A stretch of 64,000 bases of DNA from a virus. Its lineage: Duplodnaviria > Caudoviricetes. The notes beneath the pieces are model-generated. The model made no database searches, was not told where the DNA came from, and saw nothing but the letters and a program-made list of their open reading frames with translations. Location of the stretch: the IMG/VR virus record IMGVR_UViG_3300014204_000161, positions 14,916-78,915 of that record; one strand, given 5' to 3'. Position 1 is the first letter of the stretch. Each line of letters opens with the position of its first letter. Made by a program: the position numbers and the translations under genes. This document shows positions 12,689-56,684 of this stretch, one piece after another.

Positions 12689-13225
12689 CTATTCGACAGT
12701 AGTTAACTGACTACCTACCTTCGTTCCAGCAACCATCGTTGCTACGACCAAGTAGCCAATCCCGTTGTTTACGTATTCGCCGCCAATATCGAAGCCTACG
12801 CTAGTAGTTTCAGGAATAGTCATTGCCATGTTATGACCAGGCGAAGATTTCCAACCATCGAATGCGCACTTAATATCTTCGTCAGTTACTCCGCTAACTC
12901 CGGAGGCTTTTGCATTACTGTGTAAGTCCCCGTAACAATTTTCGACTACTGAATACTGTCGTATCTTATCTCTGTAAAACGGGTCGATGATTTCTAATCT
13001 CGAATGAACACCAATGCCATGGCTGATTTTTTCGAATCTTTTCATCCAAGTAGATTGGACTTTCGCAGCCGAATCAAGAAGCGGATCGTACTGAACTGGT
13101 GTTAATCCCAAACTAATACGATAATCATTGATCAGCTTGAGAAACATTAGATCGTGCTTGTCCTGCGAAAAGGCTAACGATATGCTAGCCAAGACTAAGA
13201 TGATTATAACGAGCGCTTTCTTCAT
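12689..13225 (-). CDS. CAP (SCP/Tpx-1/Ag5) domain exported protein
   Basis: Signal peptide; LINDYR...L..AA..QS..M...H...VENC...W..SPGH..M. Confidence 0.85.
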   Translation of the reverse strand: MKKALVIIILVLASISLAFSQDKHDLMFLKLINDYRISLGLTPVQYDPLLDSAAKVQSTWMKRFEKISHGIGVHSRLEIIDPFYRDKIRQYSVVENCYGDLHSNAKASGVSGVTDEDIKCAFDGWKSSPGHNMAMTIPETTSVGFDIGGEYVNNGIGYLVVATMVAGTKVGSQLTTVE

Positions 13226-21900: not shown

Positions 21901-22098
21901 ATGTATTACTTAGTGAAAATCAGGTTCGAAGCGGACCAAGAAAATGGAAAGATCAAAAAAATTCGCGAACAGCATTTGATTCATGCTGAATCGGTTGGTG
22001 CTGCTGAAAAGAGCGCTCTGTCAAGGTTCGGTGGTGGAATCTCTCCGTGTTACATCGAGAGCGTCCAGGAATCGAAGATCATGAGCGTGATAGAATAG
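21901..22098 (+). CDS. DUF4494-family protein
   Basis: VKIRF...ENGKIKKIREQHLIHAES...AE...I.SV.ESKIM resembles Bacteroidota DUF4494. Confidence 0.7.
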   Translation: MYYLVKIRFEADQENGKIKKIREQHLIHAESVGAAEKSALSRFGGGISPCYIESVQESKIMSVIE

Positions 22099-22164
22099 AC
22101 TCTTCGCAATGATCTAAGTTGGTGAACCTGCTTCCATCGAGAAGCTTCTACCCAAAAGCCGGAT

Positions 22165-22207
22165 ATTTGCAAGTAAATCAGTTTACTAATGAATCCGGCT
22201 TTTTTTG
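22165..22207 (+). terminator. Terminator (long hairpin)
   Basis: AAAAGCCGGAT...ATCCGGC-TTTTTTT. Confidence 0.65.
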
Positions 22208-22229
22208 TGTGTGCCGGCTCGAGTGACAT

Positions 22230-22261
22230 AAAAAAAGGTCAGCCTCACGGTGACCTTTTTT
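22230..22261. terminator. Bidirectional terminator at the 3' end of the large RNA
   Basis: A7-GGTCA-N9-TGACC-T6. Confidence 0.75.
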
Positions 22262-22262
22262 A

Positions 22263-22690
22263 ATATCGTTCAGCAGAACGTACGGAAGGAATAGGGTTTA
22301 CCTCCAGTTTGATACTATGCTACAAGTTTACGACGACCTTCAACTCCCTCTGTCGAGGGCGACTCAAAACAGGTTAGCTGCCAGTCTGAATCGCTGTCGT
22401 GTCACCACAACAAATTGAGTGCCTTATCCCACACAGCTGAGAATTATTCGGCCACAAGACGGGGGTCTTGTATACCCGTACGTCGTTTGCAAGATACCAT
22501 TGGATTATGCATCCAGTATATCTAAATCAAAACCTCGAGTTCCGATGGTTAGTCGGTTCACGGCGACCGCTTAGTCACTGTCTTCATGCGGGGCATCCCC
22601 CTAACTCGAACCGTTACTCACTTTTGCAATATGAGTTGTTCCAGCACGCACTAGGACCAGATTCATGACTCCCTGATCCCTCTGCCAAAC
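22263..22690 (-). ncRNA. Large structured non-coding RNA (ROOL/GOLLD-type candidate)
   Basis: No credible CDS; flanked by promoter GGGTATAAT (~22740-22748) and a terminator; multiple hairpins and a long-range ACGTACGG/CCGTACGT helix. Confidence 0.7.
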
Positions 22691-22776
22691 GCAATAAAAT
22701 AAATAACTTAAAAATGTATTTGAAGTATGTTCGGAAGTAATTATACCCAGCTTTTAGAAAACGGTTTTGAAAAAGT

Positions 22777-23004
22777 TTAATTTTTTGTTGGGTAAGGTGA
22801 AGTATCGCCGCGTTCCTTTCTGCGAAGGACTGCCATTTGACGGTCTGATGCTCTACCGTGCTGCTTCTTCATGATCGTGTCAAGAACTTCTCCTAAGTAC
22901 TTATCTCCGTAAACTATGGCGCGCCAGTACTTCTCAGATTTTATTTCATGAGGAAACTTGTTCTCGTTCAAGAATTCTTCTACGGATTTAACTGGATTTC
23001 GCAT
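22777..23004 (-). CDS. Putative internal head protein
   Basis: Leader MRNPVKSVEEFLNE. Confidence 0.65.
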   Translation of the reverse strand: MRNPVKSVEEFLNENKFPHEIKSEKYWRAIVYGDKYLGEVLDTIMKKQHGRASDRQMAVLRRKERGDTSPYPTKN

Positions 23005-56217: not shown

Positions 56218-56227
56218 GTAGTATAAT
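56218..56227 (+). promoter_or_regulatory. GTAGTATAAT promoter class (putative middle)
   Basis: Exact copies at 56218 (+) and at 3478, 13232, 29026, 38325 (-); variants at ~21796, 22740, 61122. Confidence 0.7.
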
Positions 56228-56268: not shown

Positions 56269-56677
56269 GGGGGTGAACGGCATTGACGTGAGCGATCGGG
56301 TTAAACTTGCATGCCGAGAATGATACCATCTCGCTAACTGTATCAAAACTGTAAGTGGCAACACTACAATCTGGGATCTCATCAATGGCACCGCTGTTGC
56401 TGAGAGCGTTGACGAGCTAGCACTAGTTGCGTAAACCGTTGGCCACACTTGCCAACGACCATAGAAGAAAGGTGTACGTGCGGGAAAAATCGGCAATAGT
56501 ACCGCTTTCGAAATCGTGGAGCCGAAATCATCCACAACAGGTTCGCTGACTGGCCCCTAAGTCAGTTCAAAAAAGAAGGGAAAAAGTTTTGTTGGCTTCG
56601 TAAAACCAACTAAGCATGTGAACGAACGTTTAGTCAGGCACTAAACGGACATGGGTTCGAGTCCCATCACCTCCACT
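56269..56677 (+). ncRNA. ssrA: tmRNA
   Basis: 5' GGGGGTG pairs with 3' CACCTCC-A including the G3:U70 Ala identity pair; T arm ATGGG-TTCGAGT-CCCAT; tag ORF at 56357-56434 reads GNTTIWDLINGTAVAESVDELALVA*. Confidence 0.9.
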
Positions 56678-56684
56678 CCGGCAC

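What the first reader, a model, noticed from the sequence alone, without database searches (positions are those of the whole stretch)
22263..22770. About 430-nt highly structured orphan RNA with its own promoter and terminator
Seen helices: CCCTC/GAGGG (22346-59), CAAGAC/GTCTTG (22455-70), TGGAT/ATCCA (22501-15), CCGA/TCGG (22542-56), TCGAGTT/AACTCGA (22535/22603) enclosing a multiloop, ACTCA/TGAGT (22616-36), and a long-range ACGTACGG/CCGTACGT (22278/22476). No tRNA, tmRNA or intron hallmarks were seen. Known: ROOL and GOLLD are large phage-associated RNAs of unknown function. Inference: a ROOL/GOLLD relative or a new ornate RNA class.
Basis: partly seen in the sequence, partly recalled or inferred. 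Interest (0 to 1): 0.75.

Follow-up and report, generated by a model that had tools for sequence, protein, structure and literature searches.

The report
Interlocked double manA phage RNA gene
The flagged stretch is a real, conserved, roughly 425-base folded RNA gene of an uncultured giant phage, read from the opposite (minus) strand; it is built from two interlocked copies of the known "manA" RNA, which a 2026 preprint reports to self-assemble into RNA-only cages, and it stands alone instead of sitting in front of a gene.

Summary
Window 22267-22691 encodes a highly structured RNA, but on the minus strand. In 12 homologs, 114 base pairs in 20 helices are 98.8% paired, and 37 pairs carry compensatory changes (shuffles give 15). 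The opposite strand would pair only 85.9%.

It is not an orphan and not a ROOL or GOLLD relative. Rfam's manA model (RF01745) hits twice in tandem, at 40.2 and 36.4 bits, below the gathering score of 55.2. The orthologous module in a relative scores 59.6.

The two modules are interlocked. The closing stem and the two helices that stand in for manA's P8 stem form between module A and module B (99-100% paired), not within each module (40-71%). An extra 11-bp helix clamps the ends.

A conserved TATAAT-type box lies upstream and an intrinsic terminator lies downstream. The next gene converges, so there is no gene to regulate. Short contigs covering only the RNA occur in RNA libraries of three studies.

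Most likely it is a free-standing RNA that self-assembles. The ACCA loop survives only in module A and its UGGU partner only in module B.

This scan earlier noted double-module manA-like RNAs in marine giant phages, on unrelated DNA. I rate it a new variant of a known kind.

The parts
22740..22747 (-). Promoter-like box GGTATAAT (the TATAAT is at 22745-22740). The transcription start is inferred near 22733.
   Evidence: An (A/G)GTATA(A/G/T)T box lies 24-49 nt upstream of the first helix in all homologs shown, inside an otherwise variable spacer. RGTATAAT occurs 8 times in the window against 2.8 expected, and 0 of 100 shuffles reach 8. One copy lies 41 nt upstream of the tmRNA gene. The start site is not mapped.
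22681..22691 (-). 5' strand of end-clamping helix H0 (CGUUUGGCAGA)
   Evidence: It pairs with 22267-22277. The helix has 11 pairs, 99.2% paired, 3 of them with compensatory changes (helix 1).
22653..22680 (-). Hairpin P1 of module A
   Evidence: 9 pairs, 100% paired, 4 with compensatory changes (helix 2).
22647..22651 (-). 5' strand of the manA-type closing stem (GUGCG), followed by the conserved UG
   Evidence: It pairs with 22280-22284, which lie after module B's last hairpin. 5 pairs, 100% paired, 1 compensatory and 3 wobble-type changes (helix 3). The within-module alternatives pair only 40% and 48%.
22610..22645 (-). Module A stem with the GGAACAA / UAAC internal loop (manA P3). Its apical loop carries an invariant UGCAA.
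   Evidence: helices 4 and 5: 10 pairs, 5 with compensatory changes. Aligned to the GAAUAA / UAAG loop of RF01745.
22535..22609 (-). Module A three-hairpin junction. The hairpins lie at 22590-22601 (loop GAUG), 22564-22577 and 22542-22556 (loop CUAACCA).
   Evidence: helices 6-9: the closing stem has 5 of 7 pairs with compensatory changes. The UAACCA loop is invariant in 12 homologs while its stem covaries.
22526..22533 (-). 5' strand of inter-module helix H4 (G-UUUUGAU, one bulged U)
   Evidence: It pairs with 22307-22313 in module B. 7 pairs, 98.8% paired, 3 with independent compensatory changes (helix 10).
22494..22525 (-). Small variable hairpin (stem AUAC/GUAU; tip UGGAU/AUCCA only in the window's closest kin). 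The conserved UUGCAA lies just 3' of it.
   Evidence: A 4-5 bp stem is predicted in 9 of the 12 homologs. Length varies from 16 to 35 nt. Not scored for covariation because the alignment is poor here.
22481..22486 (-). 5' strand of inter-module helix H3 (ACGACG)
   Evidence: It pairs with 22330-22335 (CGUCGU). 6 pairs, 98.6% paired, 2 independent compensatory changes, in L059 and L077 (helix 11).
22459..22479 (-). Hairpin ACGGG-UAUACAAGACC-CCCGU (manA P9-like, 11-nt loop) of module A
   Evidence: The stem is invariant in all 12, so covariation says nothing (helix 12). The loop UAUACAA matches the RF01745 consensus UAuacA.
22421..22452 (-). Module B stem with the CGAAUAAU / UAAG internal loop
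   Evidence: helices 13 and 14: 7 pairs, 3 with compensatory changes. It matches the GAAUAA / UAAG signature of RF01745.
22341..22417 (-). Module B three-arm junction. The arms are a hairpin with the GUGGUG loop (22396-22411), a long arm 22359-22394 ending in the loop GCUAACC, and the hairpin 22347-22358.
   Evidence: helices 15-19. UGGU is invariant in 12 homologs. The register of the first two arms is ambiguous, because two registers both fit the substitutions.
22330..22335 (-). 3' strand of H3
   Evidence: See H3 (helix 11).
22307..22313 (-). 3' strand of H4 (AUCAAAC)
   Evidence: See H4 (helix 10).
22285..22305 (-). Hairpin GGAGG-UAAACCCUAUU-CCUUC (manA P9-like, 11-nt loop) of module B
   Evidence: 5 pairs, 100% paired, one-sided changes only (helix 20).
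22280..22284 (-). 3' strand of the closing stem (CGUAC)
   Evidence: See the closing stem (helix 3).
22267..22277 (-). 3' strand of H0
   Evidence: See H0 (helix 1).
22231..22262 (-). Intrinsic terminator: GGUCACCGUGAGGCUGACC followed by a run of U. It has an A-run on the other side, so it could also act for the plus strand.
   Evidence: All 12 homologs have a G+C-rich hairpin followed by U6-U8 here. Stem sequences differ between lineages, and folding energies are -12 to -17 kcal/mol. The consensus scan missed it because of one stem mismatch.

Best explanation
This is a free-standing non-coding RNA gene on the minus strand.

Shown: A TATAAT-type box at 22745-22740 lies upstream, and an intrinsic terminator at 22262-22231 lies downstream. 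Between them sits a 425-nt core (22691-22267) made of two manA-family modules in one chain. The modules are interlocked, not merely tandem. The manA closing stem forms between the strand after module A's first hairpin and the strand after module B's last hairpin. Where a single manA has its P8 stem, two helices (H4 and H3) each join a strand of module A to a strand of module B. An additional 11-bp helix clamps the 5' and 3' ends. The next gene on the other side of the terminator converges, so the RNA has no reading frame to control.

Inferred: The RNA works in trans as a structural particle. Single-module manA RNAs build pentamers, decamers and a 60-mer cage in vitro through loop-loop contacts (L5-L7', L8-L9'). 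I read L5 as GUGGUG and L7 as uaACCA. Here the ACCA loop is kept only in module A and the UGGU loop only in module B. Both are invariant, so one A-B loop contact either locks the pseudo-dimer or links molecules head to tail into larger assemblies. What such an assembly does in infection (scaffold, enclosure or sequestration) is unknown.
For: Family:
- Two full-length RF01745 hits on the minus strand, 22679-22449 (40.2 bits, E 3.7e-9) and 22480-22277 (36.4 bits, E 1.3e-7).
- All eight homologous loci give manA hits on the same strand. L059 scores 59.6 bits, above the gathering score of 55.2.

Structure and strand:
- 98.8% of cells are paired and 37 of 114 pairs are compensatory, against 15 in shuffles.
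- The plus strand would pair only 85.9%.

Interlocking:
- H4 is 99% paired, H3 99% and the closing stem 100%.
- The within-module versions pair 71%, 40% and 48%.
- H4 has three independent compensatory pairs and H3 has two.

Stand-alone gene:
- A promoter-like box is conserved in all homologs, and the motif class is enriched in the window.
- A terminator is present in 12 of 12 homologs with differing stem sequences.
- The downstream neighbour is the convergent DUF4494 gene at 21901-22098.
- The cassette is absent from related phages that keep both flanking genes, leaving gaps of 72-160 nt (L060, L068, L078, L079).

Conservation and RNA libraries:
- In a relative about 93% identical (51.7-kb contig), 22262-22690 carries few changes while 22694-22770 is dense with them.
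- In three libraries labelled metatranscriptomic, from three studies, the only contig laid is 377-385 nt long and lies wholly inside the RNA.

Assembly:
- Cryo-EM of manA oligomers held by kissing loops (bioRxiv 10.64898/2026.07.01.735769).
- UAACCA (module A) and UGGU (module B) are invariant while their stems covary.
Against: - The strand, 5' end and 3' end of the transcript were not seen directly. The runs laid are contigs. RNA libraries can hold DNA, one of the three laid is flagged as probably DNA, and assembly graphs break where strains differ. The short contigs are therefore only a hint.
- The promoter is a motif match with no mapped start, and no -35 element was recognised.
- Both window modules score below Rfam's gathering threshold.
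- Self-assembly is transferred from in-vitro work on single-module manA RNAs in a preprint. My equation of L5 and L7 with the GUGGUG and ACCA loops rests on helix order, on the GNRA loop of L6 and on complementarity. I could not see the preprint's figures.
- The two loops are invariant, so no covariation tests their contact.
- The register of module B's first two arms is ambiguous. In one register part of UGGU is base-paired.
- Classical manA RNAs sit upstream of genes on the same strand, which fits cis-regulation for those members.
Confidence: 0.6

Rival explanations
1. It is a cis-acting regulator, a tandem riboswitch or attenuator. The two manA modules sense a metabolite and set how often transcription passes the terminator at 22262-22231. 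Read-through would run antisense across the small DUF4494 gene and into the nucleotide-metabolism genes further along the minus strand (Metallophos 21786-21127, ThyX 20764-20072).
For: manA was proposed as a riboswitch candidate upstream of nucleotide-synthesis and other genes (PMC2864571). In P-SSM2 it precedes purL-hsp20-purM on the same strand. Here the order RNA, then DUF4494 (opposite strand), then Metallophos, then a thymidylate synthase recurs in relatives.
Against: The terminator does not overlap the conserved fold. It lies about 5 nt past helix H0. Its stem sequence differs between lineages while the fold stays the same, so no conserved anti-terminator pairing is visible. About 480 nt and a convergent gene separate the RNA from the next same-strand gene. 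Relatives without the RNA keep the same flanking genes. No ligand for manA has ever been reported in the papers found.
Confidence: 0.15
2. It is a processed 3' end of the upstream operon. The RNA is co-transcribed with the 75-aa gene (23004-22777) and the genes before it, and then persists as a nuclease-resistant 3' fragment. The TATAAT-like box would then be incidental. Its role could still be structural or in trans.
For: Only 85 nt separate the stop codon at 22777 from helix H0, and no terminator lies between them. The clamped, compact fold would resist exonucleases.
Against: The (A/G)GTATA(A/G/T)T box is conserved in every homolog within a spacer that otherwise varies freely in sequence and length. 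The same box stands 41 nt upstream of the tmRNA gene. The cassette comes and goes between relatives as a unit.
Confidence: 0.15
3. It is a new RNA class that only resembles manA by convergence or chance, or a relative of ROOL or GOLLD.
For: Both window modules fall below Rfam's gathering score. The overall topology, with interlocked modules and an end clamp, is not that of the Rfam model.
Against: There are two independent full-length hits with E 1e-7 to 1e-9 side by side on one strand. An ortholog scores above the gathering score. The signature loops are shared (GAAUAA/UAAG, GUGGUG, uaACCA, the 11-nt UAUACA loop). There is no ROOL, GOLLD, OLE, raiA or RNase P hit even at E 10.
Confidence: 0.05

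Closest known systems
manA RNA motif (Rfam RF01745; Weinberg et al. 2010, PMC2864571; cryo-EM assemblies in bioRxiv 10.64898/2026.07.01.735769)
   Same: Each module has these manA features:
- a stem with a GAAYAA / UAAS internal loop
- a three-arm junction
- a 5-bp hairpin with an 11-nt loop

Module A keeps the uaACCA loop and the UAUACA loop. Module B keeps the GAAUAA/UAAG loop and the GUGGUG loop. There is a 5-bp closing stem followed by UG. Like classical manA, it is phage-borne. The Rfam model matches end to end.
   Different: - There are two modules in one chain, against a single copy in all 37 cyanophage records checked.
- The closing stem and the P8-position helices form between modules instead of within one.
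- An extra 11-bp helix clamps the ends.
- Each module has lost one partner of the ACCA/UGGU loop pair.
- There is no GNRA loop on the middle arm.
- It is a stand-alone gene with a terminator and a convergent neighbour, not a 5' leader.
- The phage is a distant T4-like jumbo phage from landfill, groundwater, freshwater and wastewater samples, not a marine cyanophage.
- Scores are 36-40 bits, against 182-184 bits for P-SSM2 and P-SSM4.
Double-module and free-standing manA-like RNAs noted earlier by this scan in marine giant phages (e1-5366135, e1-5366153, e1-5690000, e1-5700537; AI notes, not publications)
   Same: They are about 400 nt long, carry two manA-type cores or an end clamp, behave as genes of their own, and are abundant in environmental RNA libraries, according to those notes.
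   Different: The DNA is unrelated; no shared words were found with this stretch. Those RNAs are marine and lie beside tRNA genes. I could not see their sequences, so I cannot say whether their modules are interlocked in the same way.
ROOL and GOLLD large phage-associated RNAs (Rfam families; their cage-like multimers are from my own knowledge of 2024-2025 cryo-EM reports, not checked here)
   Same: They are large, ornate, phage-associated and non-coding, with no known function. By analogy through manA, they are candidates for RNA-only multimeric particles.
   Different: There is no sequence or structure homology; no Rfam hit appears at E up to 10. This RNA is smaller, 425 nt against roughly 600-800 nt.
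Tandem-aptamer riboswitches such as glycine (from my own knowledge)
   Same: Two homologous folded modules in one transcript contact each other.
   Different: Those precede a regulated gene and carry an expression platform that overlaps the aptamer. Here there is no downstream gene, and the terminator is independent of the fold.

Membership tests
manA RNA (RF01745) | Covariance-model score at or above Rfam's gathering score (55.2 bits) | tested here: inconclusive
   The window modules score 40.2 and 36.4 bits, below the cut-off but with E 3.7e-9 and 1.3e-7. The orthologous module A in L059 scores 59.6 bits, above the cut-off. L061 scores 49.6.
manA RNA (RF01745) | Stem with an asymmetric internal loop UGAAUAA... 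/ UAAG after a conserved GUG | tested here: met
   Module B has GUG-GC-CGAAUAAU ... UAAG-GC. Module A has GUG-CU-GGAACAA ... UAAC-GG. The stems covary (helices 4, 5, 13, 14).
manA RNA (RF01745) | Three-hairpin junction whose loops are GUGGUG, a GNRA tetraloop and uaACCA | tested here: inconclusive
   The junction is present and covaries in both modules (helices 6-9 and 15-19). Module A keeps only uaACCA and module B keeps only GUGGUG. Neither has a GNRA loop on the middle arm.
manA RNA (RF01745) | P8 hairpin (7-bp stem, inner stem, loop UaCUguA) formed within one module | tested here: not met
   The within-module pairing of module A is 71% paired. The strands instead pair across modules: H4 is 99% paired with 3 compensatory pairs, and H3 is 99% paired with 2.
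manA RNA (RF01745) | Terminal 5-bp hairpin with an 11-nt loop UAuacAguAAU | tested here: met
   Module A has ACGGG-UAUACAAGACC-CCCGU and module B has GGAGG-UAAACCCUAUU-CCUUC. Both have 5 bp and 11 nt. The stems are 100% paired but show no compensatory change (helices 12, 20).
manA RNA (RF01745) | 5-bp stem that closes the fold between the strand after P1 and the strand after the last hairpin | tested here: met
   It is present once for the whole RNA: 22651-22647 pairs with 22284-22280, 100% paired with 1 compensatory pair (helix 3). The per-module versions pair only 40% and 48%.
manA RNA (RF01745) | Position in the 5' untranslated region of a protein gene (the basis of the cis-regulatory label) | tested here: not met
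   The RNA is followed by a terminator and then a convergent gene. Contrast P-SSM2 and P-SSM4.
manA RNA (RF01745) | Homo-oligomerisation through kissing loops (preprint 2026) | not testable with these tools
   Only complementarity and invariance of the ACCA and UGGU loops can be shown. No RNA 3D or multimer tool was available.
ROOL / GOLLD | Match to the Rfam covariance models of these families | tested here: not met
   cmscan of 22000-22900 on both strands at E up to 10 lists manA and five chance-level hits. It lists no ROOL, GOLLD, OLE, raiA or RNase P. The gathering-score scan of the whole window gives only tmRNA.

The most novel reading that the evidence does not exclude
The RNA is a natural, covalently fused manA pseudo-dimer that assembles in infected cells into an RNA-only shell or ring with half as many chains as single-module manA particles. 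The fusion, together with the complementary loss of one kissing-loop partner in each module, would be evolutionary evidence that manA oligomers are the working form in vivo. It would also imply that the manA family as a whole is a set of structural, trans-acting phage RNAs and not riboswitches.
Probability: 0.25. Interest if true: 0.85.

Novelty: new variant of a known kind. Interest (0 to 1): 0.62.

Why it matters
manA has been an unexplained riboswitch candidate since 2010. A 2026 preprint reports that it builds RNA-only cages in vitro, but gives no evidence that this matters in cells.

Here the same fold appears as a gene of its own, with nothing to regulate. It is duplicated and interlocked. 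The two halves of the reported loop-loop contact are divided between the modules and kept invariant. That is the pattern expected if module-to-module contact is the selected function.

The variant also takes the family out of marine cyanophages and into distant T4-like jumbo phages of fresh water, groundwater, landfill and wastewater. Its apparent abundance in RNA libraries suggests it is a major phage transcript.

It offers a compact, well-defined construct (22691-22267) for testing whether manA assemblies exist and what they do.

Tried and rejected
- Plus-strand reading: rejected.
- ROOL, GOLLD, OLE, raiA and RNase P: no Rfam hit.
- tRNA or tmRNA at this site: none.
- Protein coding: only ORFs of 66 aa or less overlap the core. 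The substitution pattern is that of base-paired RNA.
- Simple side-by-side tandem manA: rejected in favour of interlocked helices.
- RNAalifold's long-range helix (alignment A1 columns 70-73 with 414-417): three unpaired cells, and it crosses the better-supported H4.
- L8(B)-L9(A) loop contact (CUUGUA/UACAAG in the window): not conserved in seven of the 12 homologs.
- GTTCTTWA upstream motif as a general promoter element: not enriched, 10 against 6.4 expected.
- blastn against the phage collection: no match.
- 37 related viral records reached through neighbouring proteins: no manA hit.
- Pattern scans of viral contigs: two were chance hits in coding DNA (L057 and L081), and one found nothing.
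- GTDB genomes: no match.
- Apparent 575-nt gaps upstream of the 75-aa gene in L061-L065: these are uncalled protein genes, not further RNAs.
- Absence of cover on the flanks in the RNA-library contigs: treated only as a hint, as the tool advises.

Full report
**What is at the site.** The finding lies in a 680-nt gap between two convergent genes. One is a 65-aa DUF4494-like gene on the plus strand (21901-22098). The other is a 75-aa gene of no known family on the minus strand (23004-22777). The window is part of a 78.9-kb viral record estimated to be 29% complete. Its large terminase is a distant T4-type. The nearest cultured relatives, at about 30% identity, are Sphingomonas phage PAU and jumbo phages of Tenacibaculum and Flavobacterium.

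**Rfam.** At gathering thresholds the window holds only a tmRNA, at 56269-56678. With E-value thresholds, the region gives two full-length matches to manA (RF01745) on the minus strand. They are 22679-22449 (40.2 bits) and 22480-22277 (36.4 bits). Nothing resembling ROOL, GOLLD, OLE, raiA or RNase P appears even at E = 10. Classical members in the cyanophages P-SSM4 and P-SSM2 score 184 and 182 bits. They are single-copy in all 37 cyanophage records found. They sit upstream of same-strand genes.

**Homologs.** Proteins related to the 75-aa neighbour led to contigs from JGI, ENA and Logan assemblies. An invariant 22-nt pattern found three more. Eleven loci carry the RNA at 74-92% identity. Related phages that keep both flanking genes but have only 72-160 nt between them lack it (L060, L068, L078, L079). 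The RNA is therefore an accessory cassette. On the homologs, Rfam again reports manA on the gene strand. L059 scores 59.6 bits, above the gathering score of 55.2.

**Structure.** RNAalifold on nine sequences gave most helices. Inspection of substitutions corrected three long-range ones. The final model was scored on 12 sequences (A2). It has 114 pairs in 20 helices, with 98.8% of cells paired. 37 pairs have changes on both sides, against 15.0 +/- 2.3 in shuffles (0 of 500 reach it) and 3-5 when partners are slid.

Read on the plus strand, the same pairs would be only 85.9% standard. In the window itself the count is 94 of 114 against 114 of 114. This fixes the strand, together with the folding z-scores and a terminator hairpin with U6-U8 in all 12 homologs whose stem sequences differ between lineages.

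**Architecture.** The order along the RNA is:
- clamp helix H0
- hairpin P1
- 5' strand of the closing stem
- module A stem with its internal loop
- module A three-hairpin junction
- H4 5' strand
- small variable hairpin
- H3 5' strand
- P9-like hairpin
- module B stem with its internal loop
- module B junction
- H3 3' strand
- H4 3' strand
- second P9-like hairpin
- 3' strand of the closing stem
- H0

The helices that a lone manA forms within itself are here formed between the modules. H4 is 99% paired, H3 99% and the closing stem 100%. The within-module alternatives are 71%, 40% and 48% paired. H4 has three independent compensatory changes and H3 has two. The RNA is thus one closed fold containing two manA cores, not two beads on a string.

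The register of module B's first two arms stays ambiguous.

**A gene of its own.** An (A/G)GTATA(A/G/T)T box is conserved 24-49 nt upstream of H0 in every homolog, within an otherwise free-varying spacer. RGTATAAT is enriched in the window, 8 against 2.8 expected. One copy stands 41 nt before the tmRNA gene. The terminator is separate from the fold and followed by a convergent gene.

23 public runs from 15 studies hold the stretch or part of it. Two, the possible sources of this DNA, hold all of it, and the rest hold 22-32% of the sampled words. The habitats are landfill, groundwater, fresh water, sediment, sludge, wastewater and a bioreactor, and 11 runs are on record as RNA. I laid four runs. 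In a DNA run, a 51.7-kb contig of a relative about 93% identical is much better conserved over 22262-22690 than beside it. In three libraries labelled metatranscriptomic, from three studies, the only contig laid is 377-385 nt long and lies wholly inside the RNA. One of the three is flagged as probably DNA. These are contigs, so strand, ends and level are not shown. I count this as a hint of an abundant discrete RNA, not proof.

**Mechanism.** The riboswitch proposal of 2010 (PMC2864571) does not fit this member. There is nothing to regulate, and the terminator shares no conserved pairing with the fold.

A 2026 preprint (10.64898/2026.07.01.735769) reports by cryo-EM that manA RNAs form octamers, decamers and a 60-mer icosahedral cage. 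These are built from pentamers held by intermolecular kissing loops L5-L7', plus L8-L9' or L3-L8', and a GNRA-receptor contact of L6.

Counting helices in the Rfam consensus, L6 is the GAAA loop. L5 is then GUGGUG and L7 is uaACCA, which are complementary. That assignment is my inference.

In this RNA, UAACCA survives only in module A and UGGU only in module B. Both are invariant in 12 homologs while their stems covary. A palindromic UUGCAA is likewise conserved, both in module A's apical loop and in the junction before H3.

The best-supported reading is therefore a free-standing, self-associating structural RNA. It is a fused manA pseudo-dimer whose one retained ACCA-UGGU contact either locks the two cores or chains molecules together. 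Fold, strand, cassette nature and family are shown. Promoter use, transcript ends, assembly and biological role are inferred.

**Novelty.** Neither the papers found nor Rfam describe a double or interlocked manA. This scan itself has already noted double-module and free-standing manA-like RNAs in marine giant phages, on unrelated DNA. This is therefore a new variant of a known kind. The new points are the interlocked topology demonstrated by covariation, the split loop pair, and the non-marine, non-cyanophage setting.

Noticed in passing
window 56269-56678 (+), with 56220-56227: A phage-encoded tmRNA. Rfam RF00023 scores 94.6 bits, E 1.3e-35, over the full model, but ARAGORN does not report it. 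An AGTATAAT box lies 41 nt upstream.
   Followed up: partly
window 2501, 3478, 13232, 22740, 29026, 38325 (-); 56220, 57614 (+): RGTATAAT occurs 8 times against 2.8 expected, and 0 of 100 shuffles reach 8. Copies lie 6-21 nt upstream of the start codons at 13225, 29019 (DNA ligase) and 38303. This may be a promoter class of this phage.
   Followed up: partly
window 21901-22098 (+): A 65-aa gene that matches only the C-terminal half of Pfam DUF4494 (profile positions 74-137 of 139). It is kept at 65-67 aa and in the same convergent position in all relatives, whether or not they carry the RNA cassette.
   Followed up: no
L060:2729-2800, L068:2831-2913, L078:1277-1435, L079:871-1029: Related phages keep the 75-aa-type gene and the DUF4494 gene but lack the RNA cassette, with gaps of 72-160 nt. 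L048, L069 and L070 have different genes here. The RNA is an accessory insertion of about 500-600 nt.
   Followed up: partly
window 22476-22483 and 22278-22285 (-): Two near-palindromic segments, ACGUACGG and CCGUACGU, could pair with each other (99% of cells paired, one-sided changes only) or each with its own copy in a second molecule. The pairing excludes H3, the P9-like hairpin and the closing stem, so it may be an alternative conformer or an intermolecular contact.
   Followed up: partly
window about 22624-22629 and 22488-22493 (-): The palindrome UUGCAA is conserved in the apical loop of module A's first stem and again in the junction before H3. They are candidate partners for a loop contact comparable to the L3-L8' contact named in the preprint. 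The sequences are invariant, so covariation cannot test this.
   Followed up: no
L066:1007-1325: This relative has about 320 nt of extra unassigned sequence between the RNA's terminator and the DUF4494 gene. It has no similarity to the window.
   Followed up: no
window 22170-22206 (+): A second hairpin with a T-run (ccggat...atccggcttttttt) lies just after the DUF4494 gene. That gene therefore has its own terminator, in addition to the possibly two-way hairpin at 22240-22262.
   Followed up: no
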